Part shown: positions 13,227 to 62,846 of the stretch, in pieces
How positions within the stretch are numbered: the stretch's first letter is position 1
How the letters are laid out: every line of letters begins with the position of its first letter
Source of the DNA: an uncultured Pseudomonadota bacterium
Lineage (GTDB): Bacteria; Pseudomonadota; Alphaproteobacteria; Rs-D84
NCBI GenBank assembly: GCA_900321105.1
Contig: OOHL01000001.1
Span: forward strand, 121,617 to 185,616
Length of the DNA: 64,000 nucleotides
Direction: 5' to 3'
The notes under the pieces: model-generated
Seen by the model: only the letters and a program-made list of their open reading frames with translations
The model's database searches: none
Told to the model about the DNA's origin: nothing
Position numbers and translations under genes: made by a program

Positions 13227-13228
13227 GG

Positions 13229-13270: not shown

Positions 13271-13285
13271 CAAAAGGAAGAAAAA

Positions 13286-13756
13286 ATGAAAAAGATATGG
13301 ATATGTGTGTTAATGATAATGGTGTTTGTAATACCAGCGTTGGCTGTGTCGGTCTGTGCCAAAGACAGTGTTGTTACGGTTGTATTGGATCCATCAATCG
13401 GTGGTAATTCATATACATATAATAACAGCACAGGCGTGTGGAAAACGGTGTTTTCGTACGGCAATGTGTCGGGGGTCAGCACATGTTCAACCGTCGCCCC
13501 AACGGGTGGCAGGGGTTCAACCAATACCAGTGCAGGCACCCCATTGGATGCCGTTGCAGGCGATACATCGGGACGATATTGTTGGTGTAAAATGACACAC
13601 CCAATGTCTTCGCTTTGGGCGTTCCTCTACGACTACGGGTTTGCTTCGAATTGCGCTTCGAACTGTGCGACCATCTGCGGTAACTACGTCCGGAACGGCG
13701 GCGATTTGCGCGGCGGGCTGTTCGGTTCGGTCGCCGCTGCGAATGCAGCGTATTGA
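13286..13756 (+). CDS. DGR target (variable) protein: small secreted Cys-rich protein with the VR at its C-terminus
   Basis: AAGGAAG RBS; signal peptide MKKIWICVLMIMVFVIPALA; the last ~45 codons align with the TR except at TR adenines. Confidence 0.8.
   Translation: MKKIWICVLMIMVFVIPALAVSVCAKDSVVTVVLDPSIGGNSYTYNNSTGVWKTVFSYGNVSGVSTCSTVAPTGGRGSTNTSAGTPLDAVAGDTSGRYCWCKMTHPMSSLWAFLYDYGFASNCASNCATICGNYVRNGGDLRGGLFGSVAAANAAY
13605..13734 (+). repeat. DGR variable repeat (VR)
   Basis: 130 bp; 116/130 identical to the TR at 14065..14194; 13 of 14 mismatches lie at TR adenines, 1 is C to G. Confidence 0.85.
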
Positions 13757-13802
13757 TGTAACGCAAGGGCCGTGGCACGAACACGCGTGACACGATAATG
13801 CG

Positions 13803-13829
13803 CCCGACACCACGGCAAGTGGTGTCGGG
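13803..13829 (+). promoter_or_regulatory. GC-rich 10-bp stem-loop about 45 nt downstream of the VR (candidate DGR homing-enhancing hairpin or terminator)
   Basis: cccgacacca-cggcaag-tggtgtcggg perfect inverted repeat. Confidence 0.5.
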
Positions 13830-13837
13830 AATTAAAA

Positions 13838-13947
13838 TTTCTCCTCCTTTGGAGGAGTCCTTGGAAATACACCCCGTCACTTCGTGCCACCCCTTCATAG
13901 AGGGGAACTAAGAAGTTCCGCACCCGCGGGGGGGAGAACATAAAAAA
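13838..13947. repeat. composite intergenic hairpin repeat, copy 2 (units B and C)
   Basis: near-identical to 12591..12735. Confidence 0.7.
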
Positions 13948-14064
13948 CAGGAATAAAAACGAATCTTTGACAACAGGGTGTGATAAGTTGTATTGTTATG
14001 TTCAAGGGTATATCGCCGTATCGGTTGTGCGGTAGCTGATTCGTGGGGCGTGGCTGGGTTGTCG

Positions 14065-14194
14065 TGTCTTCGCTTTGGGCGTTCAACAACGACAACGGGA
14101 ATGCTTCGAATTGCGCTTCGAACTGTACGAACAACTGCGGTAACAACGTCCAGAACAACGCCGATTTGCGCGGCGGGCTGTTCGGTTCGGTCGC
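14065..14194 (+). repeat. DGR template repeat (TR), noncoding
   Basis: adenine-rich (about 28 A, many AAC/AAT triplets in the VR reading frame); matches the VR except at adenines. Confidence 0.85.
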
Positions 14195-14596
14195 TCCTTT
14201 GCAAGGTTATAACTTTGAATGCAAAGACAAAGTTTGGCTAACCTGTGGGACAAAGTGGTAAAACACTTTTCAGATGCGGATGTATCTGTTTATATATGCC
14301 TTGTCACATCAAAGGCGGGGCGGTATATCCTGTCCGAATACAAAGGACCAAACACAATACACAGGGGACATCTGGACTGGTAGGGTTTTTAACCTGAACG
14401 CCCTGGATGTCCAATACAAGTAGATTCGGGAACGAAGTGTATCGGAATCGTCACGGTATGCGCGCAGACACATAGTGTCGAGCGAATACGAGAATACATA
14501 ATTAGAAAAATCATAAAAACGGAGCTGTTTGATATGAGTTTTTATAGATTTTTATTATTGTGTATCGAGGAAAAAAATAAAACGAAGAGATAATAA

Positions 14597-14923
14597 ATGA
14601 CTTTAGATGAAATTAAAAAATTAGATGCAACATCTTGTCCAAGATTTTCGGCGTTCGCTAAAAATCAATTACCAATGCCGGGAAATAAAAAACGCCTTGA
14701 TGATATTTTAAACCGCGAAATTACTGTTATTGATTATCGAATTCGTAAATCTACGAAACGTGATGGCACCGAATGTTTACAAATGCAATTTTTACTGGGT
14801 GATGAAGTCTGTGTTGTTTTTACCGGCAGCAGCGTTTTAATCAACCAAATCAAAGAATCCAAAGATAATATTCCTTTTACTGCAACTTTGGTCAAAATGG
14901 ACAGATATTATTCTTTTTCTTGA
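14597..14923 (+). CDS. DGR accessory protein (not obviously Avd-like), 108 aa, ends 4 nt before the RT start
   Basis: position between TR and RT; beta-rich composition rather than a basic helical bundle. Confidence 0.45.
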   Translation: MTLDEIKKLDATSCPRFSAFAKNQLPMPGNKKRLDDILNREITVIDYRIRKSTKRDGTECLQMQFLLGDEVCVVFTGSSVLINQIKESKDNIPFTATLVKMDRYYSFS

Positions 14924-14927
14924 AACG

Positions 14928-15956
14928 ATGAAACGTTATAAAAATCTTTGGGATAAATTTATTTCTATGGAAAATCTGGAATTAGCAGCAAAAAAAGCAG
15001 TTAAATCCAAAAAAAATAAACCAGAAACAAAACTGTTTTTAGAACATAAAACAGAATTCTTGCTGAAATTACAACAAATGTTAATTGATGGGAATTTTAA
15101 TACATCCCAATATAAAGTTCGCAGAATTTTTGAACCAAAAGAAAGACTGATTTATATTTTACCCCTTTATCCAGATCATATTGTGCATCATGCGTTGATA
15201 AATATTCTGGGACCAATTTGGCAAAGTGGTTTTATTCGTGATTCTTATGCCTGTATCCCAGGCAGGGGATTGCATGCCGCATCAACCGCGATAATGAAAT
15301 TTATTCGTCGAAATAAATATGTTCTGCAATGCGATATTCGCAAATTTTATCCGTCCATAAATCATGATGTAATGTTTAATATAATAAAAAAGAAAATTGG
15401 CGATAAACGATTGTTGAATTTGTTACATAATATTATATGGTCATGTGGTGACGAAACAAATCTGCCAATTGGTAATTTAACATCACAATGGATGGGAAAT
15501 GTTTATATGAACGAATTGGATCATTTTGTAAAAGAACAATTACGATGCACGGACTATATTCGTTATTGTGATGATTTTTGTTTGTTCGCAAATGATAAAA
15601 AAACTTTGCATGAATATGAAAATAAATTGCATCAATTTGTGCGTGATAAATTAAAATTGGTATTTTCTAAATCTGTAATTCGAGTTGTTGCAAATGGGGT
15701 TGCGTTTATTGGTTATCGGCATTTCAAAAAATTTATATTGTTGCGAAGATATGGTGCTAAAAAAATGCGAAAACGTATTCTGCATATTGCAAAATACAGG
15801 GATAAATCTGATTTGGCAATTGGACAATTAGCGGCATATCATGGTTGGGCTAAATGGTGTTGCAGTCATAATTTTCTGACAGACGTTTGCAATCGTGCAA
15901 AAGAAATATCTGAAAAAACAGGTCAATTTATTTTTTGCAATTTGTTCAAGAATTAA
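14928..15956 (+). CDS. DGR-type reverse transcriptase
   Basis: RT motifs QCDIRKFYPSI, LPIGNLTSQ (the DGR-specific SQ motif) and YIRYCDDF (YxDD); 342 aa, typical DGR RT size. Confidence 0.85.
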   Translation: MKRYKNLWDKFISMENLELAAKKAVKSKKNKPETKLFLEHKTEFLLKLQQMLIDGNFNTSQYKVRRIFEPKERLIYILPLYPDHIVHHALINILGPIWQSGFIRDSYACIPGRGLHAASTAIMKFIRRNKYVLQCDIRKFYPSINHDVMFNIIKKKIGDKRLLNLLHNIIWSCGDETNLPIGNLTSQWMGNVYMNELDHFVKEQLRCTDYIRYCDDFCLFANDKKTLHEYENKLHQFVRDKLKLVFSKSVIRVVANGVAFIGYRHFKKFILLRRYGAKKMRKRILHIAKYRDKSDLAIGQLAAYHGWAKWCCSHNFLTDVCNRAKEISEKTGQFIFCNLFKN

Positions 15957-15962: not shown

Positions 15963-16997
15963 TTAAAATCCAGTTTTTATACCAACTGCAAAAAATGGTG
16001 TTGTGTCGGTTATGCCGCCTGACATAAATATCGCCGTATGTTCGGTGTATTTATAACGAAACGATGCGATAAGTGTATGCAAATAATCGCCTTCCATTTC
16101 TGCGCCTGTTATTTCGTCATGATGTGTGAATAAATTTGTGTCTGAATATATATAGTTTAATGAAACACTGCTTTGCAGGAAATCATAACTGACCCCCGTG
16201 CCAAGAACCAATCCATCTGCTGTTTTCATAATTGGTTTTTCATCATAAATCAAACGCGATGATAATCCAAAAACCCAACTGTTATATTGCAGGTTTGCAC
16301 CCAATGCAACCTGACCGCGCCAATCGGCAGTGACCGGTGGTGTAAATGAATTTTCTTCATATCCATCTGGTTTGTCCATATATGAAAGTGCGATGGAATA
16401 GGCGGCCTTTAATTTTCCAAATGGCTGTTTGAATTTTGCCGCTGTATCAATCGCAAAATCAAAATCACCACCAGGACCCGCAACAGAAATTCCATATTGA
16501 CCGTATTCTGTTGATATCGTCGCCAGGTTTAATCGCAATGCATCGTGGCCTGTTGTTGCGGTTGTATCAGATATCAAAACCTTGTCCAAATCTAACTTGT
16601 CCTGCAATATTGATTTATTGTTTATACGCAAATAACCAACGTCTGGTAAACCCAATCCCATTTTACGTGCGATGGAATATGTTAAACCAAATTCAGCACG
16701 TCCAACGGTTCTGTCTTCGAATAATACAAATGCATCGTGGACATATTCGTCATCGTCAACGCATGCGGCATCAATTGAATAAACCGCACCAATTCTTTGT
16801 GATTGATTTAAACGATAAAGTGCCGTTGCCTTGATGTCCCAATCGTCAATAAACATTGGTTTGTCATCACGCGTTTCCAAGAACCCGACCATACCATCGG
16901 CATCTAATTTGAATTTCCAATTATCAACCGTATAATCCAACGCGTATGCGTTCGTTGCGAATAAAGATGCCAATGCAATCAAAGATATTTTTTTCAT
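15963..16997 (-). CDS. outer-membrane beta-barrel (porin-like) protein
   Basis: signal peptide MKKISLIALASLFATNAYA; alternating amphipathic strands; C-terminal ...GIKTGF. Confidence 0.55.
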   Translation of the reverse strand: MKKISLIALASLFATNAYALDYTVDNWKFKLDADGMVGFLETRDDKPMFIDDWDIKATALYRLNQSQRIGAVYSIDAACVDDDEYVHDAFVLFEDRTVGRAEFGLTYSIARKMGLGLPDVGYLRINNKSILQDKLDLDKVLISDTTATTGHDALRLNLATISTEYGQYGISVAGPGGDFDFAIDTAAKFKQPFGKLKAAYSIALSYMDKPDGYEENSFTPPVTADWRGQVALGANLQYNSWVFGLSSRLIYDEKPIMKTADGLVLGTGVSYDFLQSSVSLNYIYSDTNLFTHHDEITGAEMEGDYLHTLIASFRYKYTEHTAIFMSGGITDTTPFFAVGIKTGF

Positions 16998-21227: not shown

Positions 21228-23501
21228 TTAATTATGCAATGGTTCCAATACTTTTATTTCATTGGTGTTTGGATTCAAAACGCGTGGCACACCATCGTAT
21301 CCCATAATTGCATGATGCGATGGGATTAAAAATTCAGGTAATGGGGATGCTTCGCCCATCAAGACTTTTTCATGCAATTTCTTTTGAACAGGGGTTTTAT
21401 TAAGGAAATGGAATTCTTGGTCTGCTTCGATTGGACGATGATACCATCCTTGATAAATAACCAATTGTTTGCCTGGTTTTAATCTCATAATATCGTATTC
21501 GCTGTAAAGAGGTTCTTCTTTTGGTGTTTCGACTTCTTTGCCGTCTTTATCGGTTTCGACTTTCTTAGTCTTTTTCTGACCAATCATATCTGAAAATCTG
21601 CGTGCAGTATCCGGGTCGTTTTGACGCATAACAACTTTTGCCGCAGTTGTTGAAATAATTGTTGATGCGGCATCATTTCCATATTTTTCACTTATCTGGT
21701 GAATATCTTGACCGATGATTAAATAAGATACTTTTTGTCCGCGTCCCAAATCTGGTCCCTGAATAACAGCATCCAATTTTTGCATTTTTGGCATTTCATC
21801 CAAAACAAACAACACTGGACAAGGTCCCATTTTTACACCGTCAACAACCTGGTCCACATTGTGTGCCAATAAATAATTAGACATCAATTCAATGAATATC
21901 GCGGTTATTGGATTCAAAGCCTGGGCATCAACCATATTAATAGAAAGATATACCGTCACAGGTTTAATTTTTCCATCCCTTGGATCCATCATGCCACGCA
22001 TATCCTTGAAATGAAAATCAGAATGTGATGTTCTGTTTCTAACTGCAGCATTACGGAATATTGCCAGGCCTTCCATCATGGTGGAAAGAATTGATCCGCG
22101 TTCTTTATCAGGTGTATTTGCCAATTGCGTTAATTCAGAAACAGCACGATTTGCATACGCGTAACGGCGTGCTTCTTCAACCGCATCCAAAAGCAAATTT
22201 TTCATAGGATCTGCCATCATAACCATTTGATCGCCTTGCTTGCGACGTTCTTCCATTTCTTCGGCGATGGCAACCTGGGAAGATGTTAACCAATCAAGAA
22301 TCATGGAAAATGAAGCCTCGCGGCCACGCCATGAATCTGGGATGTGTGCCCATGTTCCAACATGGACATAATTGTTAATATTTAATTCGCCCTTATTCAA
22401 AATAGAATAGGCGGCATACGCGTTCGGATCGTTCATCATTGATAAATAATAGTCGCCCAACACAGCTGCATCGTCGCTGTTAAATGTCCCGTTGTTTATA
22501 CGTGCATAGAAATAGTCATCGGCGCGTGCGCGTTCAACCTTGGATACAATAAAGTTAATAAGTCCAGATAATCCGGCGCGACCAGTATTTGCCCAGTGCG
22601 GATCCGCAGTTGAAGATTTGCTGTCTGGGACCAAAACCTTGGCCATGGAATCGATATACAAATCACGTTGTTCTGGATTGTATGGAATATGGTCTGGCGA
22701 TAATGGATTCCAAGATGGATAATATATACCACGTGCTGGATCGTCCTGACCTGCCCAATTCATAATGAACACTGGTCCAATCGTTGAACGATAACCAGAT
22801 GTGTCTTGTTTTAATTCTGGTTTCGGGTCGTTAATAATCATTGAAACATTATCACAATCTAAAATTGTCGGTAAAACAACACCTTGGGTTTTACCGGTTC
22901 CTGGGGGTGCAACGCACAATGTTGATAACGCTTCATCCATCATAAGTGGTGTTTGTTTTCCTTTGTATTTGAAATAACCCAATACCATCATAAAACCATG
23001 GAAAAGACCTTCCTTGTTTTTGGGGTCTTGACCCATTTTTACGATATCTTCGGCGGTTGCCTTGCGCGCAGATTTTTCATCGTATTTATCTTTGCTGTGT
23101 GGATTGAATTCAGATTTAAATGTGGAATCGGCCAAGAAGTAATATCCCAAAATCGGTAATAATGGTGTAATTGATGCAAAATCTGGATGGTTTAATGTGC
23201 GAATTATCCAATAAGGAACTTCTGCAATTGCGGAAAGCCCAAACGTCATAAACAAATTTTTTATATAAATCAGTGTCCAATGTTCACTGGCCGGACCCCA
23301 TCCATATCGCCATATATGTTCAACCGCAAAAGACATACCAAACATTAATGCGCATATCAACCAAATACCAACATCCCAACGCAATTCCCAGAATTTGCGC
23401 GCCATTGGTGTTTGTTCGTGTTCCTTGTATGCGCTGGATTCAAAAATTTTTAATCCTTTGCCGGAACCACTGGATGATAAAATGTTGAACTTTATTGCCA
23501 T
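21228..23501 (-). CDS. virD4: type IV secretion coupling protein (VirD4/TraG family) with an N-terminal membrane extension
   Basis: Walker A VAPPGTGKTQGVVLPTIL; Walker B VLFVLDEMPKMQKL; N-terminal TM helices. Confidence 0.75.
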   Translation of the reverse strand: MAIKFNILSSSGSGKGLKIFESSAYKEHEQTPMARKFWELRWDVGIWLICALMFGMSFAVEHIWRYGWGPASEHWTLIYIKNLFMTFGLSAIAEVPYWIIRTLNHPDFASITPLLPILGYYFLADSTFKSEFNPHSKDKYDEKSARKATAEDIVKMGQDPKNKEGLFHGFMMVLGYFKYKGKQTPLMMDEALSTLCVAPPGTGKTQGVVLPTILDCDNVSMIINDPKPELKQDTSGYRSTIGPVFIMNWAGQDDPARGIYYPSWNPLSPDHIPYNPEQRDLYIDSMAKVLVPDSKSSTADPHWANTGRAGLSGLINFIVSKVERARADDYFYARINNGTFNSDDAAVLGDYYLSMMNDPNAYAAYSILNKGELNINNYVHVGTWAHIPDSWRGREASFSMILDWLTSSQVAIAEEMEERRKQGDQMVMMADPMKNLLLDAVEEARRYAYANRAVSELTQLANTPDKERGSILSTMMEGLAIFRNAAVRNRTSHSDFHFKDMRGMMDPRDGKIKPVTVYLSINMVDAQALNPITAIFIELMSNYLLAHNVDQVVDGVKMGPCPVLFVLDEMPKMQKLDAVIQGPDLGRGQKVSYLIIGQDIHQISEKYGNDAASTIISTTAAKVVMRQNDPDTARRFSDMIGQKKTKKVETDKDGKEVETPKEEPLYSEYDIMRLKPGKQLVIYQGWYHRPIEADQEFHFLNKTPVQKKLHEKVLMGEASPLPEFLIPSHHAIMGYDGVPRVLNPNTNEIKVLEPLHN

Positions 23502-41955: not shown

Positions 41956-43125
41956 ATGAAAAAACTTATAATATTAACATCTGTATTGGCATTGGCTGCA
42001 TGTGGCGGCGGTTCCGGTGGTCCAGACGAAAGATTTGTAGTAAGATCATCTTCCCCATACGCATATGTAACACAAAGCGCAGCAGAATCGAACAAAGATA
42101 TCACGTCAATTGCATCTGAAGTTCGCAAATGTGTTGATGATAATTGCGCAAAGAATACACACAATGGCAATGGTACGAATTTGCCAACGGTGACACCACG
42201 TATAAGCTCATACAGTGATAATACAGGTAATTGGAATGTGTACAATTTGTCAGATGTTAAATTTAACATGGCAGACGAGGGGTTGGAACCAGGCGACGAA
42301 AGTTTTAATTTTGTTGTCGATGACAAAGAAGGCAGTGCAACACGTGGCAAAATCATTGGTATTGATATGGGATTGCGAGATTCAGAAACACATCCACAAC
42401 ATGGTAATACAAATGTCAAGGCGGATTTTGTGCGTAACGATGATAACAGTTTTTCTGGGTATGTAAAACACAATGGTGAACATGCTGATGCAAATGGATG
42501 GACATATGTGGAAAAGGCGAATTTTGAATCATTGGGCAAAGGTTTGACTAATAAACTTACATATTCTGATTTTGGGCAATTGGATTTAAGTGAAGCGAAA
42601 GAATACTGGAAACCTGTATTTATTGGCGGTTATGATGTGAAGAAAATATCCCCAGCGGATGTTAATGTTAAAAAAACATCAAAAGATGACGTGTTTTCTG
42701 GAAAGGTAGTTGGTTATGTTGCGTCAAATGATGGACATGGTAATGTTGAAACTTTCGCATTAGAATCTAACAACGCAACATTGACTTTTGATAAAGACAA
42801 TAACAAAACAACAACATTGAATGCAAGTTTTACAGACTGGTACAATATGGTGTACACAGAAAATGACACAACAAAATCTGTTGTATTGTCTGGGTATAAT
42901 GGTGACCATCAGATGTTAACAACACCAGAAGATGGTAAAGTGACGATTGAAAATACCGGGATATTATCAGATATACGATATTTTGGTGATAATAATGTTC
43001 CAATTGAATCTGTCGGTTTAATTCAAATTCGTGATTGTGGAGGAACCGAATGTCCAGAACACTTTGACAGCGAGGAAGTTCGTGTTGATGTTGGTTTTGG
43101 TGTCAGCAGAAAGATTACTGATTGA
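41956..43125 (+). CDS. surface-lipoprotein (SLP)-like lipoprotein 2
   Basis: signal peptide MKKLIILTSVLALAACGGGSGG; its stop overlaps the downstream Slam-like gene start. Confidence 0.45.
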   Translation: MKKLIILTSVLALAACGGGSGGPDERFVVRSSSPYAYVTQSAAESNKDITSIASEVRKCVDDNCAKNTHNGNGTNLPTVTPRISSYSDNTGNWNVYNLSDVKFNMADEGLEPGDESFNFVVDDKEGSATRGKIIGIDMGLRDSETHPQHGNTNVKADFVRNDDNSFSGYVKHNGEHADANGWTYVEKANFESLGKGLTNKLTYSDFGQLDLSEAKEYWKPVFIGGYDVKKISPADVNVKKTSKDDVFSGKVVGYVASNDGHGNVETFALESNNATLTFDKDNNKTTTLNASFTDWYNMVYTENDTTKSVVLSGYNGDHQMLTTPEDGKVTIENTGILSDIRYFGDNNVPIESVGLIQIRDCGGTECPEHFDSEEVRVDVGFGVSRKITD

Positions 43126-44477
43126 AAAAAATATTACTGATTTTATGCGTTGTGATTTCGCCTATGTTTTCATTGGCTGAACCTGATGTGAAACAAAATG
43201 GCAAAACAACAGAAATCACAATGTCTGCGCTGGATGCTGTAAAGCTGGCTGGCAATTTAATAGACAAGGGTGATTACGAGCATGCAAGTCAAATTCTTAC
43301 CATGATGCCAAAGACAGACAGTTTGCCTGTGGAAATAGAAAGATGGTTTCTTTTGGCACAAATGGAACAAAGAAAAGGTAATTACGAAGAAGCCATTAAA
43401 ATTTATCGTAAAATTCTTGATGATCAACCAGATTTGGCACGTATTCGTTTTGAATTGGCATTATGTTATATGAAAATGGGTCGTTGGTATCGTGCCGATT
43501 ATCATTTGCGTCTTGCCATGGCTGGAAAAGATTTACCAGATAATGTCAAACAAATGATGGCGTATTATCGTTATATTGTTCGTCAAAATAAACGTTGGAA
43601 TGTTTGGTTTAATTTTGGTGCGGCACCTGATTCTAATATAAACAATGGTAATGGTGGTGAAGAGTGTGTCGTAAATGGTTGGGGACGTTTTTGTCGTAAT
43701 CTTAAAGAACCAGAATCTGTGGTTGGTGCAAATTTAACATTGGGTGGAAATTACGAATTTGTATTATCTGATCATTGGCGTTGGAAAAGTGATGCAAACA
43801 TTTATTCCAATACTTATAACAACCACGATTATGATGATTTGTATTTGTCTTCATCAACCGGACCTCGATATATTTGGTCACGGGGGGACGTTTGGTTGGC
43901 GGCGATAGGCGCACGTCGTTGGTATGGTTGGGAAAAGTATAATTATTCATATGGTGCAAAACTGGACACGAATTATGACTTTACACGTAAATTGTCAGGT
44001 GGACTGACTTTGCGTTATATGGAAAATAAATATGATGAATATGGACCATTTTTAAATGGGCAAACATATTCAACAAGTTTCAGTTTGTATTATTCATTTA
44101 ACGCACGTTTGTATACGGTATTAAGAACTGGTTTGATACGTGAAGATACTGTTGTTCCAACTTATTCATATTGGCAGCCAAATTTTGCCATAGGATTGGG
44201 GATAGAATTGCCTGCTGGATTTCATGTATATGCAGAACCTTCGTTCTATATGTCTAAATATGATGATGCACAATGGGTTGTAAAAGATTTTGATTACACC
44301 CAAATCACAGAACGCGATTTTGTTCAAAGATATGCATTGTCTGTTTCTAATAATAAATTTGATGTGTGGGGTTTTGTGCCAACGTTTACAATCTCTTATA
44401 TGCGCCGCGATTCAAATATCTGGCAAAGGGAATTTGATAAAACAACACTTGAATTTACAATGCGGCAAAGATTTTAA
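43122..44477 (+). CDS. Slam-like (DUF560) outer-membrane protein: N-terminal TPR domain plus C-terminal beta-barrel
   Basis: signal peptide; TPR-like GNYEEAIKIYRKILDDQPDLARIRFELALCYMKMGRW; Trp/Tyr-rich barrel ending EFTMRQRF; lies immediately downstream of the two SLP-like genes. Confidence 0.45.
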   Translation: MKKILLILCVVISPMFSLAEPDVKQNGKTTEITMSALDAVKLAGNLIDKGDYEHASQILTMMPKTDSLPVEIERWFLLAQMEQRKGNYEEAIKIYRKILDDQPDLARIRFELALCYMKMGRWYRADYHLRLAMAGKDLPDNVKQMMAYYRYIVRQNKRWNVWFNFGAAPDSNINNGNGGEECVVNGWGRFCRNLKEPESVVGANLTLGGNYEFVLSDHWRWKSDANIYSNTYNNHDYDDLYLSSSTGPRYIWSRGDVWLAAIGARRWYGWEKYNYSYGAKLDTNYDFTRKLSGGLTLRYMENKYDEYGPFLNGQTYSTSFSLYYSFNARLYTVLRTGLIREDTVVPTYSYWQPNFAIGLGIELPAGFHVYAEPSFYMSKYDDAQWVVKDFDYTQITERDFVQRYALSVSNNKFDVWGFVPTFTISYMRRDSNIWQREFDKTTLEFTMRQRF

Positions 44478-46691: not shown

Positions 46692-47969
46692 ATGAATAAA
46701 TACCTATTATTTTTGTTGTCTTTATTTGTATGGTTTCCAGTGTATGCCGGTATACTTGTTGATGAATTTGGAATTGCAACAATAAAAGATTGCGATAATA
46801 TAAGTATCAATGACATAACGTCACTGACAGCCAATACGTTTCAAATATCCAATTCAACAATTGTCATAGATAATTTTTCTGATTGGCAAAATTGGACTGC
46901 CACAGATGTTGAATTATCTAATGTGACTTTGCAGCTTGGCGATATAGAAAATGTCCCACAGAATATAAAGTTGGAACATGTCTCTGATGCAAGTTCTGTT
47001 GTTGTCACCGCAAAAAATCAAAGCAGTTTATATAAAACAGATTTAAAGGCATTATATGACGATGTGTTTCTGTCTTGGGTGCGCGAAACAAATTATGTGC
47101 AGGTTTTTGATGATACGGATACACGTGGCGATTTTGTTGAGAATATTCGTGCAAATCATCCAGATGATAAAATGATTGTTGCCCTAGATGGTGCAAACAC
47201 TGAATCTGAGATAAATTCGCTTATGAATTCTTCGTATCATTTTAATCCGATGATTTTGATGAATCCGATAAAAACAATAAATCGTGCAACATTGATGGAT
47301 ACCGAATTCAATACAGATAATGTTGGCGCAAATGTAGATTATATTATATCAAATAAAATGACGGATTTTTCAGGACATGTTTATTTGGGTGGAAAATACA
47401 ATAATTCTTATTTGAATATAGGTATTAATGTAAATAAATTTTCTTATAAAGATTCTTTAAATGAATTTGATGGTTTTGCATATGGTCTTGATTTACGGGC
47501 CAGACAATATTTATATGATTTTTGGATTGATGGTTTGATTGGTTTTAATCGTGCACTGTTTGATGCAGATGACGTATATCAAAACGAAACAACATCCCAT
47601 AATCCAAAAGGAATATCAGAATATGCGCGCATTAATATTGGATATGATTTTACAAAATTTGCAGATTTTGTAATTTCTCCATTTGTCGGTGTTATATTTC
47701 AAAGATCTGAAATTATGAATATGTCTGATACAGATACAAATTTATTGATAGGTACAAATGCTAAATATAATTTTGTGTTGGACGGAATAAAATACGAATA
47801 TGTTGTATCAATTGCCAGTGATGAAAATATAAATTGGTATATTAGTGGAAAAGTTGGTTTCACAAGTATCGTTGACAGTGTCGGTGCATCAATAGCTGTT
47901 AACGCTTTAAAGGACGAATTTGATAATATCAATTACAAATTATCTTTAAACGCAAAATTGCAATTTTAA
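46692..47969 (+). CDS. secreted / outer-membrane protein with a C-terminal beta-barrel-like domain (autotransporter-like)
   Basis: signal peptide; C-terminal ...LSLNAKLQF. Confidence 0.4.
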   Translation: MNKYLLFLLSLFVWFPVYAGILVDEFGIATIKDCDNISINDITSLTANTFQISNSTIVIDNFSDWQNWTATDVELSNVTLQLGDIENVPQNIKLEHVSDASSVVVTAKNQSSLYKTDLKALYDDVFLSWVRETNYVQVFDDTDTRGDFVENIRANHPDDKMIVALDGANTESEINSLMNSSYHFNPMILMNPIKTINRATLMDTEFNTDNVGANVDYIISNKMTDFSGHVYLGGKYNNSYLNIGINVNKFSYKDSLNEFDGFAYGLDLRARQYLYDFWIDGLIGFNRALFDADDVYQNETTSHNPKGISEYARINIGYDFTKFADFVISPFVGVIFQRSEIMNMSDTDTNLLIGTNAKYNFVLDGIKYEYVVSIASDENINWYISGKVGFTSIVDSVGASIAVNALKDEFDNINYKLSLNAKLQF

Positions 47970-57956: not shown

Positions 57957-58118
57957 CCTGATTTAGAAATTTCATGATTACCAGTATAACATGTTTTAGC
58001 GATTCGTGCGATTTTTTATGTGTTTTATTTTTTTGTGATTTTTATGTTTTTAAGTCTTGCACAGATTCGGTCAAATTGTTATAATCATATATAATAATTA
58101 AAAGGAAAGGAAAAAAAT

Positions 58119-59066
58119 ATGTTCCACAAATTTTGCGTATTTATGATGGCTGCTGGTCTGGTCGGCGTTGCTGGGGCTGCAACTGGTATTCCACAGGTTA
58201 TTACATCAGAGGTTTTTTATGATTCTGGTGAAAAAACAGAACAGTATGTTGCCGAAGAACAGGCCTTTGAACAAGAACAACCTGTTTATGAAGTCAGTGA
58301 ATATGACACTGTTGAAACTTTTGATGAAGTGCCTGTAACGCAAGATCAAGGTGTGCCAGTGTGGCCATTGGCTGGGTCAGAAGCAGATGTTGAAATAGCC
58401 TGTGGTGAATTGGGATGTGCAAATAATGAAGCCAAGGTTGTGTCCAAGGTTGGATCTGGTTTGGTTATCGAAAACAATATTGTCACAGACGGTGCGGGGT
58501 GGACTGGTGGCCCAAATATTATGAACGGAAATCAGATTCCTGCGGGTTTTGATTATGAATGTGCAAATGGTGCCGAAATGCCATTGATGCGTCGTGAAAT
58601 GATGGAAGATGATGGCGGCAGTGTTTTGGCAATGTCACGCAGTGGTCATAAGAATTGTAAAAAATCATCAGATTCTTATGCTGTGTTTGCACAACGTGCC
58701 GGATTTGCTGCAGAACCAACTTGCAACAAGACTGCCAATGCACAATCTTCTAACAAAGAAGTCAGTGTAAATGAATATGTTGATGAAGAAGCACCGAGTG
58801 CCGTTCAAGATCAAGTTCGTTCGTGGGTTGTCACAAATGGTCAAACTTTGCGCCAGGTTTTGCAATCTTGGTGTGATAAAGAAGGTTGGGATTTGGTTTG
58901 GACAACTTCGCGTGAATATCCAATTGAAGCAAGTGCTGTATTCAAGGGACGCTTTGTAGATGTGGCATCTGCATTGATACGTAATTTTGGACGTGCAACG
59001 CCAATTCCTTATGCTAAATTTTACAAAGGAAATCGTGTTGTAGTTGTTTCAACAACAGAAGAATAA
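58119..59066 (+). CDS. secreted protein with an acidic linker and a C-terminal TcpQ-like domain
   Basis: signal peptide; C-terminal W..GW.LVW......I......F.G.F.....L....P.....Y.GN.V pattern. Confidence 0.35.
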   Translation: MFHKFCVFMMAAGLVGVAGAATGIPQVITSEVFYDSGEKTEQYVAEEQAFEQEQPVYEVSEYDTVETFDEVPVTQDQGVPVWPLAGSEADVEIACGELGCANNEAKVVSKVGSGLVIENNIVTDGAGWTGGPNIMNGNQIPAGFDYECANGAEMPLMRREMMEDDGGSVLAMSRSGHKNCKKSSDSYAVFAQRAGFAAEPTCNKTANAQSSNKEVSVNEYVDEEAPSAVQDQVRSWVVTNGQTLRQVLQSWCDKEGWDLVWTTSREYPIEASAVFKGRFVDVASALIRNFGRATPIPYAKFYKGNRVVVVSTTEE

Positions 59067-59102
59067 TAAAAACCTTGGGACAAAATGGGACGGGGGACAA
59101 AT

Positions 59103-60701
59103 ATGAAAATTCGTTTTAATATCTGTTTAATAGGTTTGATGGTGGCATTGACAGGTTGCACACTGAAAGAATCTGCCAAGGTTTCTGAAAGTGTTGATAA
59201 TAATTTTGTTAATGCATACGAAGCCTTTGAAATGGCAAAAAATCCACGCGCCAAGGTTGCCAGTGGTGATACTGTTTCCATGTCCGAAGGTGTGTGGCTT
59301 GGAAATAAATCAACATTGTTAGAACACAAAAATAATTTGCCTTCTAAATTTGAAACAGATACAGGAATCACGATTTTATTAAATGAACCTGTCACATTAC
59401 AAGTATTGGCAAATGACATCAATTCAATCACGGGTATCCCTGTGAAAATTGACAGCCAGGTTGATGCCGAAAAATTAAGAAAGACAGTTGATGTTGCATA
59501 TACCGGAAAATTATCTGGATTGTTATCTCAAATCGCAACAGATTTAGATTTGCTTTGGTATTATGACAAAGATTCAATAGTTTTCTATGAAACGGAAACA
59601 CGCACATATACATTGTATGCATTGGGAACAGATGTGTCGTATCAATCATCTGTTCAAACAGATTCTGGAAACCAAGTATCTTTGGAATCTACATTGAAAG
59701 AATGGGATGAAGTAGAAGCAACCATAAATTCCATTATAAATAATTCCAAGAATGCACAATTTACCGTATCTCGCAGTTTGGGAACAATTACTGTGACGGC
59801 GACACCATCGATTTTGAATCGTGTTGGTGAATATATCGCAAAACAAAACAAACGTCTTTCACAATTGGTGACAATTGATGTAAAGGTTTTGCAAGTATCT
59901 TTATCTAATGAATCGGCGTTTGGTTTGAATTTGGCGGCGGCGATAAATTCTGCATCTGGATTGAACATCGTTGCGAATCCAAAGAATAATTTGGCATCAA
60001 CCGAAGCATCATCTATGAATGTTGCTGTGTTGTCAAATACTGTTGCGGATTCGGTGACTGGTTTAACAGGAACATATACCGAAGATCAAATTCGTAATGG
60101 TTCGTTATCGCGTATGGCGGGATCCAGTGCCTTGATAGAAGCCTTGGCAAAGCAGGGCAAGGTATCATTGGTCACAAACGTTGGTGTGACAACACGTAAT
60201 AACCGCGTTGCGCCTGTGACAAATACAAAATCAACCGGATATATTAAACGTTTTGAATCAAGAACATTTACAACCGTTGAATCCAGTACCGTTGACCAAG
60301 ACGATTTGGAAACAGGATTTTCAATGCAATTATTACCAAATGTTTTGGAAAATGGAAAAATATTGCTGTTGTTCAAAATGTCAGTTCGCGAATTGTTAAA
60401 GATGTCAACCCAAACAATTGGTGCGGTCACACTGCAATTACCAGAAGTTGAAGAACGTTCGTTTATGCAAGAAGTTATCATGGAATCTGGTCAAATGTTG
60501 GTTGTATCTGGATTTGAAAAACAAAAGAACGATGATACACGTTATGGTTTGGGTGATGCGGACTTTATGGCGTTGTCTGGTTCGCGTGAAACGGCGGCAT
60601 CGCGTGAAGTTTTGGTTGTTATCTTGACACCTCAGGTTTTGGTCAGCCCGATGGATGCAGAACGCAGCATTCAACAACATTGGGGTGCACCAATGAATTA
60701 A
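59103..60701 (+). CDS. lipoprotein secretin (TcpC/BfpB/PilN-like)
   Basis: lipobox ALTGC; C-terminal secretin signature VTNVGVTT...GLGDADFMALSGSRETAASREVLVVILTPQV. Confidence 0.6.
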   Translation: MKIRFNICLIGLMVALTGCTLKESAKVSESVDNNFVNAYEAFEMAKNPRAKVASGDTVSMSEGVWLGNKSTLLEHKNNLPSKFETDTGITILLNEPVTLQVLANDINSITGIPVKIDSQVDAEKLRKTVDVAYTGKLSGLLSQIATDLDLLWYYDKDSIVFYETETRTYTLYALGTDVSYQSSVQTDSGNQVSLESTLKEWDEVEATINSIINNSKNAQFTVSRSLGTITVTATPSILNRVGEYIAKQNKRLSQLVTIDVKVLQVSLSNESAFGLNLAAAINSASGLNIVANPKNNLASTEASSMNVAVLSNTVADSVTGLTGTYTEDQIRNGSLSRMAGSSALIEALAKQGKVSLVTNVGVTTRNNRVAPVTNTKSTGYIKRFESRTFTTVESSTVDQDDLETGFSMQLLPNVLENGKILLLFKMSVRELLKMSTQTIGAVTLQLPEVEERSFMQEVIMESGQMLVVSGFEKQKNDDTRYGLGDADFMALSGSRETAASREVLVVILTPQVLVSPMDAERSIQQHWGAPMN

Positions 60702-60717
60702 TATATATATAAGAATA

Positions 60718-60750
60718 AAAAAAACATCCGCATATGCGGATGTTTTTTTG
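60718..60750 (+). terminator. rho-independent terminator
   Basis: catccgcatatgcggatg palindromic hairpin followed by a T-run. Confidence 0.55.
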
Positions 60751-60804
60751 ATTATATACACAAAATATGATATAATATACGCATATTAAAGAGGGTGTAG
60801 TAAT

Positions 60805-61857
60805 ATGAAAAAACTGCCTTTGATGGTGTTTTGTTTGTTGCCTGGTATGGTTTGGGCAGATGCAGGCGCAGAAGTTGCATTAAATGATGCAATTGAAATT
60901 GTGCGAACACAATGCCGTGGCATATCCGCAAAAATGGAAGGTATCAAAAAAATGGCAGGCATAGGAACTGCTGTGAATGCTGTTGGTACTGTGGCTGGCG
61001 CTGGTGGTGTTGCGGCAGGGGTTGTTAAATATAACACTGATGTATCAATGGCAAAAACCATGGGCGAAAAAGCAGCAACTGATGAATTGTTACGCAAATT
61101 AAAAGAAAAAGAATTATCACCTGAAAATCAACTTGCATTGAAAAAAGACATTGTTTTATCACCCGATTTTGAAAAGAATCTGCAGGCGCTTGTTGATGAA
61201 CTAAATGCCGAAGAATCTGTGCAAGATAAACAAAAAACATTAACAGAACACAGTGCTGAATTACAAAACAAAATAAACGAACAACAGAAAAAATCTATAA
61301 CTGCAGGTAATGTAAGAACTGGTTTGTTTGCGGTTGATACGGTAAGTAATGTTACCGGGGCTGTTGTTTCTTCGAAAACAGTTGCTGATAAAGATTTCAT
61401 TGAACAAATTAAACTTTGTACCGAATCAATGGATGTGTTGCGTAATGCGCGCACACGTTTAAAGGTTGAAAATGGTGCAGATTCTGCACCGGCATCAATG
61501 GAACGCAGTCAAAAGATTTTGGATAAATGTAGCGAATATGAATATGTCAATGTTCAACAATTAAACAATTTGGGCAAGGGCGCAATGATTTCGAACTCAG
61601 TTGGTGCTGCAACCGGAACTGTTGCAACGATAACGAGCGCATTGGGTAACGACAAAAAATTATCCGAAATGGATTTCAAAACAGAAGATGGTATTAAACA
61701 AATAAATAAATATGAAAAAGTGAACGTGGCAAGTAATATTATTGGCGGTGTGACTGCGGCGGCATCTTTGTCTGGAACAGTATTAAATGCATCACAAATC
61801 AAAACCGCAAAACAAATATTAAATATCGCCCAAGAATGCGAGGAGGCCTTGCAATGA
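60805..61857 (+). CDS. secreted hypothetical protein (Gly/Ala/Val-rich N-terminal region)
   Basis: signal peptide MKKLPLMVFCLLPGMVWA. Confidence 0.4.
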   Translation: MKKLPLMVFCLLPGMVWADAGAEVALNDAIEIVRTQCRGISAKMEGIKKMAGIGTAVNAVGTVAGAGGVAAGVVKYNTDVSMAKTMGEKAATDELLRKLKEKELSPENQLALKKDIVLSPDFEKNLQALVDELNAEESVQDKQKTLTEHSAELQNKINEQQKKSITAGNVRTGLFAVDTVSNVTGAVVSSKTVADKDFIEQIKLCTESMDVLRNARTRLKVENGADSAPASMERSQKILDKCSEYEYVNVQQLNNLGKGAMISNSVGAATGTVATITSALGNDKKLSEMDFKTEDGIKQINKYEKVNVASNIIGGVTAAASLSGTVLNASQIKTAKQILNIAQECEEALQ

Positions 61858-62543
61858 TAAAACGTATATTAATTATATCTTTGTCATTGTTTATGCCAAT
61901 ATTCGTAAACGGTGAAACATTGGTTATCGGATCTGAAAATTCTTTAACGGAAAAAAATTTACCTTTTGTTTATGAAATAATGGAAGAAGTATATACAGAG
62001 AATCTTTATAATCGTGAGTGTTATACAAAAGGTAACCACAGTTTATATGAACCTTTTCTTGAAGGTGATGTAAGTATACCCTTTTCAGGGAAAGATTTAT
62101 TAAAGATTTGTCGTAAGTCAATCATAAGTTATTATAAAGACAGAAGCATAGATTATGTTACTGGTTTTGTTGATCTTACTGGTACGCAGATTTGTAAAGA
62201 AAAACTATGTGTGCATTTTGTTTTGAACTATGTTAAAGAAATATCACAAGTTGATTATATGGTTGATGCAAGCAAAAGGGATATTGCTTATAACTTCGAT
62301 AGCTTGAAATTAGCTGAACACAAATTTGTAGATGATTTTGATAATTGCGCAAAGAAGAATGGTGGGGTTGCAGCGTATATTAGTGAGCGTGTAATAGAAC
62401 AAGGTATAGAAAGTGTATCTTCAAAAGAATTATTAAAATATTGTAAAGATTTTTATTCGCAGTGGTCTTGGACTTGGTCTTGTAAAGATCATTGTTCGGA
62501 ATTTGTTGAAATGTATAAATCTGCTTTAAAACAAAAACAATAA
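61854..62543 (+). CDS. secreted hypothetical protein
   Basis: signal peptide MIKRILIISLSLFMPIFVNG; start overlaps the upstream gene stop. Confidence 0.4.
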   Translation: MIKRILIISLSLFMPIFVNGETLVIGSENSLTEKNLPFVYEIMEEVYTENLYNRECYTKGNHSLYEPFLEGDVSIPFSGKDLLKICRKSIISYYKDRSIDYVTGFVDLTGTQICKEKLCVHFVLNYVKEISQVDYMVDASKRDIAYNFDSLKLAEHKFVDDFDNCAKKNGGVAAYISERVIEQGIESVSSKELLKYCKDFYSQWSWTWSCKDHCSEFVEMYKSALKQKQ

Positions 62544-62545
62544 AA

Positions 62546-62575
62546 ACACCGCCCGATTGGGCGGTTGTTTTTTTG
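62546..62575. terminator. bidirectional rho-independent terminator
   Basis: accgccc-gatt-gggcggt hairpin followed by a T-run. Confidence 0.55.
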
Positions 62576-62585
62576 AGAAATTTTA

Positions 62586-62846
62586 TCAAGCAATCTTAGC
62601 AACTTTCTTTGTTAAACGAGAAACCTTGCGCGATGCTGCTTTCTTTGGCATTGTTTTACCAGCTGCTTTCATGATTTTGCTTTCTGCATTGCGAACTGCG
62701 GCAACTGCAGCGGCTTTATCGCCAGATTCAATTGCTTTCAATGCTTTCTTGGTTTCTGTTTTAACAGCGCTGCGACGTGCAGTGTTAATTGCATTCTTTT
62801 TTGCTGTCACTAAAATTCTTTTTTTACATGATTTATGATTAGCCAC
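62586..62846 (-). CDS. rpsT: 30S ribosomal protein S20
   Basis: MANHKSCKKRILVTAKKNAIN.. basic helical protein. Confidence 0.85.
   Translation of the reverse strand: MANHKSCKKRILVTAKKNAINTARRSAVKTETKKALKAIESGDKAAAVAAVRNAESKIMKAAGKTMPKKAASRKVSRLTKKVAKIA

What the first reader, a model, noticed from the sequence alone, without database searches (positions are those of the whole stretch)
58119..62543. TcpQ-like protein, lipoprotein secretin and two secreted proteins: fragment of a type IVb pilus or secretion module
The 59103..60701 ORF encodes a lipoprotein with a clear C-terminal secretin domain. The preceding gene ends with a TcpQ-like W..GW.LVW...F.G.F motif; TcpQ/TcpC and BfpG/BfpB are the paired components of type IVb pilus secretins. 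Two further signal-peptide proteins follow. No pilin, ATPase or platform genes are in the window, so this may be a remnant or a split locus.
Basis: partly seen in the sequence, partly recalled or inferred. Interest (0 to 1): 0.55.

Follow-up and report, generated by a model that had tools for sequence, protein, structure and literature searches.

The report
Split type IVb pilus secretin pair
Two adjacent genes encode the outer-membrane pore (a lipoprotein secretin) and its small binding partner of a type IVb pilus in an uncultured, tiny-genome gut alphaproteobacterium (Candidatus Enterousia); the pilus motor genes lie about 134 kb away on the same contig, so this is an intact but split pilus system, and the two "secreted protein" genes next door are an unrelated movable cassette.

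Summary
ORF 58119-59066 carries a C-terminal TcpQ domain (Pfam PF10671, 66.6 bits, cutoff 27) and matches BfpG in PDB 9u5s (E=3.7e-15). ORF 59103-60701 is a lipoprotein secretin that matches BfpB over its full length (E=2e-41); its best NCBIfam model is PilN (type IVB).

The source is a Candidatus Enterousia chromosome (order Rs-D84, gut, genome under 1 Mb). The pair is not a remnant. Across 63 Enterousia-clade species the secretin has a median identity of 81%, above SufB (76%). TcpQ sits directly upstream in 79 of 80 loci.

The same 251-kb contig carries PilO, a PilP-like protein, a BfpD-like ATPase (E=1e-75) and a platform protein about 134 kb upstream. In more distant relatives all six genes form one operon.

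The two downstream signal-peptide genes are not part of the module. A terminator and a promoter-like site separate them from the secretin. The slot they occupy varies from 276 to 4784 bp between species. The same two-gene cassette sits elsewhere in other genomes.

No pilin or prepilin peptidase was found near either locus.

Verdict: a new member of a known kind, of moderate interest.

The parts
58058..58085 (+). Promoter-like site (TGCACA, 16 nt, TATAAT, with TG before the -10) 34 nt upstream of the tcpQ-like start. It is followed by an AAAGGAAAGGA ribosome-binding site.
   Evidence: Consensus scan and sequence. This is a consensus match only; the number of such matches in the region is not above the shuffle expectation.
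58119..59066 (+). TcpQ/BfpG-like secretin partner, 315 aa. Parts in order: Sec signal peptide; a variable acidic stretch; clade-conserved motifs (W-P-x-x-G-S-D/E-A-D, G-W-T/S-G-G, M-P-L...D-D-G); a C-terminal TcpQ domain (aa 234-311).
   Evidence: Pfam PF10671 at 66.6 bits against a cutoff of 27. BfpG chain 9u5s_R at E=3.7e-15. Alignment A4 of 14 orthologues. Directly upstream of the secretin in 79 of 80 related loci.
59103..60701 (+). Lipoprotein secretin of the BfpB/PilN (type IVb) type, 532 aa (538 aa if started at 59085). It has lipobox LTGC, an LG-domain-like N-terminus, N0/N3 regions and a secretin domain, and no C-terminal S domain.
   Evidence: BfpB 9u5s_A at E=2e-41, covering query residues 37-121 and 127-519. 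Pfam Secretin at 49.1 bits. TIGR02520 PilN at 246.5 bits, the best model but below its 287.65 cutoff. Invariant Cys and D-x-I-W-L-G and L-P-x-x-F-E motifs in A2. 27-28% identity over 95% of its length to plasmid PilN genes.
60715..60750 (.). Perfect palindrome AAAAAAACATCCGCATATGCGGATGTTTTTTT, 14 nt after the secretin stop codon. It reads as an intrinsic terminator on both strands and closes the two-gene tcpQ-secretin unit.
60748..60776 (+). Promoter-like site (TTGATT, 17 nt, TATAAT, with TG before the -10) for the downstream cassette. It is followed by an AGAGGGTG ribosome-binding site.
   Evidence: Consensus match only.
60805..61857 (+). Neighbour, not part of the pilus module. A secreted all-helical protein of 350 aa with 4 invariant Cys and four Gly/Ala/Thr-rich helices. 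It belongs to a fast-evolving, multi-copy family confined to these Alphaproteobacteria.
   Evidence: 63 homologues at 29-65% identity, with paralogues within one MAG. Alignment A1. AlphaFold2 model at pLDDT 70, all helical. No fold match in the PDB. At this position in only 1 of about 60 other Enterousia loci. Found elsewhere in other genomes.
61854..62543 (+). Neighbour, not part of the pilus module. A Cys-rich secreted protein of 229 aa. Its start overlaps the previous stop by 4 nt, so it is the second gene of the movable cassette.
   Evidence: No family hit. 28% identical (E=2e-13) to the ORF that follows a 350-aa family member at a different genome position (L090).
62548..62565 (.). GC-rich hairpin ACCGCCCGATTGGGCGGT with T-runs on both strands. 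It is a bidirectional terminator shared by the cassette and the convergent rpsT gene (62586-62846, - strand).
   Evidence: ORF list.
21228..23501 (-). VirD4-like type IV coupling protein, 757 aa. A link to the pilus system is possible but unproven.
   Evidence: Pfam T4SS-DNA_transf at 172.9 bits, plus TrwB_AAD_bind and TraG-D_C. Orthologues at 43-48% identity sit directly upstream of tcpQ-secretin-pilOPQR on the same strand in L007 and L008. In Enterousia it is an isolated conserved gene.

Best explanation

Proposed mechanism, inferred from the solved BfpB-BfpG complex:
1. The secretin is exported, lipidated at Cys19 and carried to the outer membrane.
2. Its extended N-terminal LG domain reaches back from the membrane to the N0 ring.
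3. The periplasmic TcpQ-domain protein clamps the C-terminal part of that LG domain at the N3 ring. This stabilises a large multimeric gated pore.
4. Through the pore passes a filament built by the inner-membrane PilO/PilP-like/BfpD-like ATPase/platform set, which is encoded about 134 kb upstream on the same strand.

The ancestral arrangement was one operon (tcpQ-pilN-pilO-pilP-ATPase-platform). In the Enterousia lineage the tcpQ-secretin pair was moved to a site between sufB and rpsT/plsY, where it forms its own promoter-to-terminator unit.

What is shown: homology, gene order, the split, conservation, and the independence of the downstream cassette.

What is inferred: that a pilus is actually made, and that it serves attachment to (and perhaps uptake from) the partner or host cells this metabolically dependent bacterium needs.
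For: Identity of the two proteins:
- TcpQ domain above the Pfam cutoff.
- Both proteins match the two chains of PDB 9u5s, BfpB at E=2e-41 and BfpG at E=3.7e-15. The family's defining features come from PMC12531336.
- Best NCBIfam model is the PilN type IVB secretin.
- Lipobox Cys and LG-domain motifs are invariant in diverse homologues.

Organism: named homologues are Candidatus Enterousia or Alphaproteobacteria MAGs.

The rest of the machine:
- The same contig (ena:ERZ27279860:k141_982431) carries PAP_PilO, a PilP-like protein (TIGR03021, 30.9 bits), a T2SSE ATPase whose best PDB match is BfpD (E=1.2e-75, against 1.6e-45 for GspE), and a T2SSF platform.
- In relatives L007, L008, L011-L018, L027, L053 and L055 the six genes are contiguous.

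Selection:
- Secretin median identity is 81% across 63 Enterousia-clade species, against SufB 76%, SufC 71% and PlsY 70%.
- TcpQ is adjacent to the secretin in 79 of 80 loci.

Transcription unit: terminator and promoter-like sites bracket the pair.
Against: - No prepilin gene and no prepilin peptidase was found in the window, in the PilOPQR locus or in about 170 related loci. Filament production is therefore unproven, and the whole genome could not be scanned.
- The PilN equivalog model scores below its curated cutoff (246.5 against 287.65). Identity to characterised secretins is only 27-30%.
- The TcpQ-like protein is 2-3 times longer than BfpG or TcpQ. Its conserved N-terminal half matches no known family.
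- The match to the BfpB LG domain alone is weak (17.6 bits).
- There are no expression or imaging data.
Confidence: 0.8

Rival explanations
1. Decaying remnant: an orphan secretin pair left after loss of the pilus genes, with no present function.
For: No pilus assembly genes lie in the 64-kb window. The genome is strongly reduced (PMC12306168).
Against: - The ORFs are intact in 79 of 80 loci, and the secretin is more conserved than SufB.
- The PilO, PilP-like, ATPase and platform genes are intact on the same contig.
- The ATPase is also highly conserved: more than 120 clusters at 71-76% identity to a relative from another genus-level clade.
Confidence: 0.03
2. The machine works mainly as a secretion device rather than an adhesive pilus. 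It would export soluble proteins through the secretin, as TcpF and CofJ are exported by the TCP and CFA/III type IVb systems (from my own knowledge of those systems). The variable genes downstream of the secretin, including 60805-62543, would be its substrates.
For: - The slot between the secretin and rpsT holds different signal-peptide or Cys-rich proteins in different species: the 350-aa family, an 'ADIASVQYVQSI' family, and giant Cys-rich proteins of 812-964 aa.
- The 350-aa family evolves fast, as exposed proteins do.
Against: - About 20 of 48 species have nothing but rpsT in the slot.
- The 350/229 cassette has its own promoter-like site after a terminator.
- The cassette sits far from any pilus gene in other genomes.
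- A gap between convergent genes is a permissive insertion site in any case.
- There is no similarity to TcpF or CofJ, and no fold match at all.
Confidence: 0.1
3. The pilus-type machine is coupled to the VirD4-like coupling protein (21228-23501) and moves DNA in or out. That would make it a conjugation- or competence-like device rather than an adhesin.
For: - T4CP orthologues sit directly upstream of tcpQ on the same strand in two relatives, L007 and L008.
- In Enterousia the T4CP is a conserved isolated gene with no T4SS genes within 8 kb in 80 loci.
- dprA lies 5 kb downstream of the secretin.
- The organism lacks nucleotide biosynthesis (PMC12306168), so DNA uptake would be useful.
Against: - The adjacency is seen in only 2 of about 16 non-Enterousia loci.
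- A dispersed VirB-type T4SS elsewhere in the genome (as in Rickettsiales, from my own knowledge) would explain the T4CP, and this was not excluded.
- dprA is near-universal.
- No known T4bP system uses a T4CP directly.
Confidence: 0.07
4. One reading: a four-gene module in which the two downstream secreted proteins are components of the pilus or secretion apparatus.
For: Same strand and close spacing, and both have signal peptides.
Against: - A terminator and a promoter-like site lie between the secretin and the 350-aa gene.
- Only 1 of about 60 other Enterousia loci has a 350-aa family member there.
- Relatives with the intact operon have PilO directly after the secretin.
- The cassette is found at other genome sites.
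Confidence: 0.03

Closest known systems
BfpB-BfpG secretin complex of the EPEC bundle-forming pilus (PDB 9u5s; PMC12531336)
   Same: - Lipoprotein secretin with an N-terminal LG-type extension, N0, N3 and secretin domains, and no S domain.
- Partner with a TcpQ/N0-like domain encoded immediately upstream.
- Both proteins are detectable by plain sequence search (E=2e-41 and 3.7e-15).
- The cognate ATPase is BfpD-like.
   Different: - About 30% identity or less.
- The partner is 315 aa with a conserved extra N-terminal half, against 114-133 aa for BfpG.
- The genes are chromosomal in a reduced alphaproteobacterial genome rather than on a virulence plasmid.
- The operon is split.
- Stoichiometry is unknown.
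PilN (with PilL/O/P/Q/R) of the IncI1 R64 thin pilus and PAPI-1/ICE-type type IVb pili (NCBIfam TIGR02520, Pfam PAP_PilO, TIGR03021 PilP)
   Same: - PilN is the best-scoring curated model for the secretin.
- The gene order secretin, PilO, PilP, ATPase, platform in relatives is the R64 order.
- 27-28% identity over 95% of the length to plasmid PilN genes, some annotated next to TcpQ-domain proteins.
   Different: - The score is below the equivalog cutoff.
- No match to any PilL model.
- No pilS/pilU/pilV-type pilin or peptidase genes nearby.
- Not on a conjugative element, as far as can be seen.
TcpC-TcpQ of the Vibrio cholerae toxin-coregulated pilus (Pfam PF10671)
   Same: TcpQ domain above the gathering score. 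It pairs with a lipoprotein secretin.
   Different: No tcp-type neighbours. The protein is much longer. TcpC itself was not recovered as a hit in the searches run here.
GspD/PilQ secretins of T2SS and type IVa pili
   Same: A shared C-terminal secretin domain (PF00263).
   Different: - Those are not lipoproteins.
- They rely on an S domain plus pilotin, or on AMIN domains.
- Secretin_N scores below cutoff here (17 against 28.2).
- The partner ATPase is closer to BfpD than to GspE or PilB by 30 orders of magnitude in E-value.

Membership tests
Type IVb lipoprotein secretin (BfpB/TcpC/PilN) | N-terminal lipoprotein signal peptide with a lipobox Cys | tested here: met
   ...LMVALTG-C19 (numbered from the 59103 start). 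The Cys is invariant in 16 homologues of 30-42% identity.
Type IVb lipoprotein secretin (BfpB/TcpC/PilN) | LG domain between the lipid anchor and N0, carrying the partner-binding region (PMC12531336) | tested here: inconclusive
   Query residues 37-121 align to BfpB 14-97 at only 17.6 bits. However, the D-x-(I/V)-W-L-G-x-x-S and L-P-x-x-(F/L)-E-x-x-x-G-I-T motifs are invariant across the clade. No structure was modelled.
Type IVb lipoprotein secretin (BfpB/TcpC/PilN) | C-terminal secretin domain and absence of an S domain | tested here: met
   PF00263 at 49.1 bits against a 27.5 cutoff, ending at residue 513 of 532. The alignment to BfpB runs to the end of both proteins.
Type IVb lipoprotein secretin (BfpB/TcpC/PilN) | Score above the curated cutoff of TIGR02520 (PilN equivalog) | tested here: not met
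   246.5 bits against a cutoff of 287.65. It is still the top model by a wide margin. This is a divergent member, not an equivalog by NCBI's rule.
Type IVb lipoprotein secretin (BfpB/TcpC/PilN) | High-order multimer (17-mer in BfpB) with a third, N3 barrel | not testable with these tools
   Needs multimer modelling or cryo-EM.
TcpQ/BfpG secretin partner (PF10671) | TcpQ domain above the Pfam gathering score | tested here: met
   66.6 bits against 27, profile positions 1-78 of 80. BfpG at E=3.7e-15.
TcpQ/BfpG secretin partner (PF10671) | Encoded next to, and co-oriented with, a lipoprotein secretin | tested here: met
   79 of 80 related loci, with a median gap of 30 nt.
TcpQ/BfpG secretin partner (PF10671) | Small single-domain periplasmic protein (about 110-150 aa) | tested here: not met
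   315 aa here and 223-343 aa in relatives. The extra N-terminal half carries clade-conserved motifs and hits no family.
Complete type IVb pilus system | Assembly ATPase, platform protein and PilO/PilP-type alignment proteins in the same genome | tested here: met
   The same contig, about 134 kb away, has PAP_PilO, a PilP-like protein (30.9 bits against a 34.65 cutoff), T2SSE (BfpD at E=1e-75) and T2SSF.
Complete type IVb pilus system | Type IVb prepilin(s) and an A24 prepilin peptidase | tested here: inconclusive
   None found in the window, in the PilOPQR locus or in the flanks of about 170 related loci, using a leader-motif scan and Pfam labels. The rest of the genome could not be searched.
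T2SS / type IVa pilus secretin (GspD/PilQ) | Non-lipoprotein with several Secretin_N or AMIN domains, an S domain or pilotin, and neighbouring gsp or pilMNOP genes | tested here: not met
   A lipoprotein. Secretin_N is below cutoff. MshL and SctC models score far lower. The neighbours and the distant partners are of the type IVb kind.

The most novel reading that the evidence does not exclude
In this clade of reduced-genome Alphaproteobacteria, the type IVb pilus machine works together with the stand-alone VirD4-like coupling protein. That protein is adjacent to tcpQ in two relatives and is a conserved orphan gene in Enterousia. Together they would form a hybrid pilus/coupling-protein device that moves DNA or proteins between the bacterium and the cells it depends on. 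The variable secreted-protein genes next to the secretin would be part of the same host-interaction toolkit.
Probability: 0.08. Interest if true: 0.75.

Novelty: new member of a known kind. Interest (0 to 1): 0.33.

Why it matters
Enterousia and the order Rs-D84 are widespread, uncultured gut bacteria with genomes under 1 Mb. They lack most biosynthesis and are thought to live off other cells. The published genome analyses report no pili or secretion systems for them (PMC12306168).

A complete-looking and very strongly conserved type IVb pilus core gives a concrete candidate for how they attach to, or take material from, a partner. The secretin is more conserved than SufB.

The case is also a clear natural example that the secretin and its TcpQ/BfpG partner form the indivisible unit of a T4bP operon. 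The pair stays together through at least three operon break-ups that look independent (Enterousia, L009, L010).

Finally, it shows an extended TcpQ variant whose extra conserved half has no known function.

Tried and rejected
- **Dot/Icm idea rejected.** I suspected that the genes next to the VirD4-like protein were DotM/DotC-like parts of a Dot/Icm system. The 201-aa neighbour is a genuine LpoB (126.9 bits against a 110.55 cutoff) and the 398-aa one shows only TPR-like traces.
- **Pilus-gene idea for window ORF 15963-16997 rejected.** Its homologue precedes tcpQ in L011-L018, so I took it for a possible pilus gene. That homologue is a porin (Porin_4), so the adjacency says nothing about pili.
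- **The 350-aa protein stays unexplained.** The AlphaFold2 model from a 33-sequence alignment has pLDDT 70 and is all helical. Foldseek against the PDB gave nothing below E=0.06. No function can be assigned.
- **First genome scan failed.** A 16-sequence secretin alignment was too diverse to derive search patterns. A 5-sequence alignment worked.
- **Metagenome scan did not reach far enough.** Scanning with the T4CP alignment, to see how often the T4CP neighbours the pilus operon, returned only Enterousia-clade loci (61-88% identity). All have the T4CP isolated.
- **No prepilins found.** Regular-expression scans for prepilin leaders in the window and in all fetched loci found nothing.
- **No horizontal-transfer signal.** GC content of the module (0.38-0.39) does not stand out from the window.
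- **One failed look-up.** The look-up of window ORF 9226-10593 failed because the gene caller used a different start.

Full report
**1. The observation**

The four ORFs are present on the + strand as described.
- **TcpQ-like protein.** ORF 58119-59066 (315 aa) ends with SWCDKEGWDLVW...AVFKGRF. It hits Pfam TcpQ (PF10671) at E=2e-18 and 66.6 bits, against a gathering score of 27, over residues 234-311.
- **Secretin.** The next ORF hits Pfam Secretin at 49.1 bits (cutoff 27.5). Its best NCBIfam model is TIGR02520, 'PilN family type IVB pilus formation outer membrane protein', at 246.5 bits. That is far ahead of MshL (96.8) and SctC (32.4), but below the curated cutoff of 287.65.
- **Start codon.** Gene callers start the secretin at 59085. 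The ATG at 59103 follows a GGGGGA ribosome-binding site and fits the homologues' N-termini. Either way the mature protein begins at the Cys of an L-T-G-C lipobox.
- **Downstream ORFs.** 60805-61857 and 61854-62543 have signal-peptide-like N-termini and hit no family.

**2. What the pair is**

Plain sequence search of the PDB returns one entry for each protein, and it is the same entry: 9u5s, the cryo-EM structure of the EPEC BfpB-BfpG type IVb secretin complex.
- The secretin matches BfpB at E=2.1e-41. The match covers the N0/N3/secretin body (query 127-519) and, more weakly, the N-terminal LG region (query 37-121, 17.6 bits).
- The C-terminal 86 residues of the upstream protein match BfpG at E=3.7e-15.

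The paper describing that structure (PMC12531336) defines the family:
- a lipoprotein secretin without an S domain;
- an LG domain that bridges the lipid anchor to N0 and carries the BfpG-binding strands;
- an N0-like partner that clamps the LG domain at the N3 ring in 17:17 stoichiometry and is needed for pilus biogenesis.

In an alignment of 16 homologues at 30-42% identity, the lipobox Cys and the LG-region motifs (D-x-I-W-L-G-x-x-S and L-P-x-x-F-E-x-x-x-G-I-T) are invariant. Plasmid PilN genes, some annotated beside TcpQ-domain proteins, are 27-28% identical over 95% of the length.

**3. Whose genome**

The exact proteins lie on a 251,555-bp metagenome contig (ena:ERZ27279860:k141_982431) among housekeeping genes. 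gatCAB, ruvX and sufBC lie upstream. rpsT, plsY, dprA, dnaA, dnaJ and gyrB lie downstream.

Named homologues are Candidatus Enterousia or 'Alphaproteobacteria bacterium' MAGs from animal guts. Enterousia (order Rs-D84) has genomes of 0.75-1.0 Mb, lacks most biosynthesis and respiration, and is thought to depend on other cells. The published analysis mentions type IV pili only for another lineage, not for Rs-D84 (PMC12306168).

**4. Remnant or split locus?**

I scanned one genome per species, called ORFs in the 80 recovered loci and compared them with the window.

*Enterousia-type loci (63 loci, secretin at least 68% identical).* The order is sufC-sufB-u183 (- strand), tcpQ-secretin (+), a variable stretch, then rpsT (-) and plsY.

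*More distant relatives (secretin 38-64% identical: L007, L008, L011-L018, L024, L027, L053, L055, L083).* The pair is followed directly by four genes, although a few of these loci are cut short by contig ends:
- PilO (Pfam PAP_PilO);
- a PilP-like protein (TIGR03021, just under cutoff);
- a T2SSE ATPase of about 545 aa;
- a T2SSF platform protein of about 362 aa.

This is the R64 thin-pilus gene order.

*The decisive test.* I searched with the ATPase of the closest such relative (L053). The search returned more than 120 clusters at 71-76% identity. One of them, P0418, lies on the same contig as the window. At contig positions about 181.7-186.3 kb sit PilO (416 aa), a PilP-like protein (225 aa), the ATPase (540 aa) and the platform (356 aa), followed by a GyrB/ParE-family topoisomerase B-subunit gene.
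- The secretin is at contig 44.9-46.5 kb.
- In window orientation the four genes are on the same strand, and they end about 134 kb upstream of tcpQ.
- The ATPase's best solved relative is BfpD (E=1.2e-75), against 1.6e-45 for GspE and about 1e-39 for PilB/PilF.

In L053 the intact six-gene operon is also followed by a GyrB/ParE-family topoisomerase B-subunit gene. So pilOPQR stayed in place and the tcpQ-secretin pair moved. L009 and L010 show other break-ups that look independent, in which the pair again stays together.

*Conservation argues strongly against decay.*

| Gene | Median identity to the window, 63 Enterousia-clade species |
|---|---|
| Secretin | 81% (range 70-90) |
| SufB | 76% |
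| SufC | 71% |
| PlsY | 70% |
| TcpQ-like protein | 53% |

The lower value for the TcpQ-like protein comes from its variable acidic N-terminal stretch. TcpQ is immediately upstream of the secretin in 79 of 80 loci, and the exception is cut by a contig end. A representative-level search shows a gap between the Enterousia clade (82%) and the next relatives (42%), all of them full-length lipoprotein secretins.

**5. The TcpQ-like protein is an extended variant**

BfpG and TcpQ are single-domain proteins of about 110-150 aa. Here the protein is 315 aa, and 223-343 aa in relatives. Between the signal peptide and the TcpQ domain there are motifs conserved across the whole clade: W-P-x-x-G-S-D/E-A-D, G-W-T/S-G-G-P/A, and M-P-L...D-D-G-x-x-V-L-x-x-S. 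These match no Pfam or NCBIfam model, including the PilL models. What this half does is unknown.

**6. The two downstream genes are not part of the module**

- A perfect palindrome with flanking A and T runs (60715-60750) follows the secretin stop. A TTGATT, 17 nt, TATAAT site with an upstream TG, plus a ribosome-binding site, precedes 60805.
- Among 48 Enterousia-clade loci holding both the secretin and plsY, the interval between them ranges from 276 to 4784 bp. About 20 hold only rpsT. The others hold unrelated sets of genes, mostly for signal-peptide or Cys-rich proteins.
- A profile of the 350-aa family finds a member at this position in only one other locus (L023).
- The 350-aa family is confined to these Alphaproteobacteria, is multi-copy within single MAGs, and diverges fast (29-65% identity where the secretin is 81-94%). 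It has four invariant Cys and four Gly/Ala/Thr-rich helices.
- Its model is all helical (pLDDT 70) and matches nothing solved.
- In other genomes a family member sits between an acyl-ACP thioesterase gene and rpmH, or next to recO, or beside lpoB. At the first two of these sites a small overlapping ORF follows it. One of those ORFs is a homologue of the window's 229-aa protein (28% identity, E=2e-13).

The two genes are therefore a translationally coupled cassette that happens to sit in a permissive gap between convergent genes.

**7. Mechanism and its limits**

*Shown:* homology to both chains of a solved T4bP secretin complex; a T4bP-type partner set in the same genome; strong purifying selection; and the unit structure of the pair.

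*Inferred:* that the TcpQ domain binds the LG region and stabilises a multimeric pore; that a filament is made; and that it serves attachment to or uptake from partner cells.

*The main gap:* no prepilin or prepilin peptidase was found in the window, in the pilOPQR locus or in the flanks of about 170 related loci. The rest of the genome could not be searched with the tools at hand.

**8. A loose end**

The window holds a 757-aa VirD4-like coupling protein (21228-23501).
- In two relatives (L007, L008) its orthologue (43-48% identity) lies directly upstream of tcpQ on the same strand.
- In 80 Enterousia-clade metagenome loci it is 61-88% identical, nearly always next to rsmE, and without any T4SS or pilus gene within 8 kb.
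- Whether a dispersed VirB system exists elsewhere is not known. A functional link to the pilus machine is possible but weakly supported.

**9. Verdict**

It is wrong about 'remnant' and about the two secreted proteins belonging to the module.

This is a new, divergent member of a known kind. It is of moderate interest as the first concrete cell-surface machine proposed for Enterousia, and as a natural demonstration that the secretin and its TcpQ partner are inherited as a unit.

Noticed in passing
window 13163-15956 (VR 13605-13734, TR 14065-14194, RT 14928-15956): This looks like a diversity-generating retroelement. A 342-aa reverse transcriptase (Pfam RVT_1) lies downstream of a 130-nt template repeat. 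The repeat's copy at the 3' end of ORF 13163-13756 differs at 14 positions, 13 of them at template adenines (28 A in the template). The region is GC-rich (0.458) and holds further hairpin-like repeats at 12571, 13210 and 13819, and at 12656 and 13870.
   Followed up: partly
window 21228-23501 (- strand); L007 7083-9215; L008 5477-7597: A stand-alone VirD4-like type IV coupling protein. In the Enterousia clade it is 61-88% identical in 80 loci and has no T4SS genes nearby. In two distant relatives it sits directly upstream of the tcpQ-secretin-pilOPQR operon.
   Followed up: partly
interval between the secretin stop and rpsT/plsY in L019-L086 (window 60702-62585): A hypervariable 'cargo slot' of 276-4784 bp. 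Different species hold different secreted-looking proteins here. These include a family starting MKPVRIIL...ADIASVQYVQSI, giant Cys-rich proteins of 812-964 aa with 42-91 Cys, and homologues of window ORF 11331-12500, which lies beside the retroelement.
   Followed up: partly
window 43122-44477 (+): A Slam-type surface-lipoprotein assembly modulator (Pfam TPR_Slam plus SlipAM) in a genome under 1 Mb. Two unannotated ORFs of 383 and 389 aa just upstream could be its substrates. A similar gene lies near another 350-aa family member in L090.
   Followed up: no
window 46692-47969 (+): A 425-aa protein with a sub-threshold autotransporter beta-domain hit (23.6 bits against 26), next to a small OMP beta-barrel gene.
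   Followed up: no
window 1424-3412 (+): A single 662-aa ORF that joins a YbeY endoribonuclease domain to an apolipoprotein N-acyltransferase (LNT_N plus CN_hydrolase). It is either a gene fusion or a missed stop or frameshift.
   Followed up: no
window 58119-58800 (N-terminal half of the TcpQ-like protein): Clade-wide conserved motifs (WPxxGSDAD, GWTGGP, MPL...DDG..VL..S) lie in front of the TcpQ domain. They match no known family and are absent from BfpG and TcpQ.
   Followed up: partly
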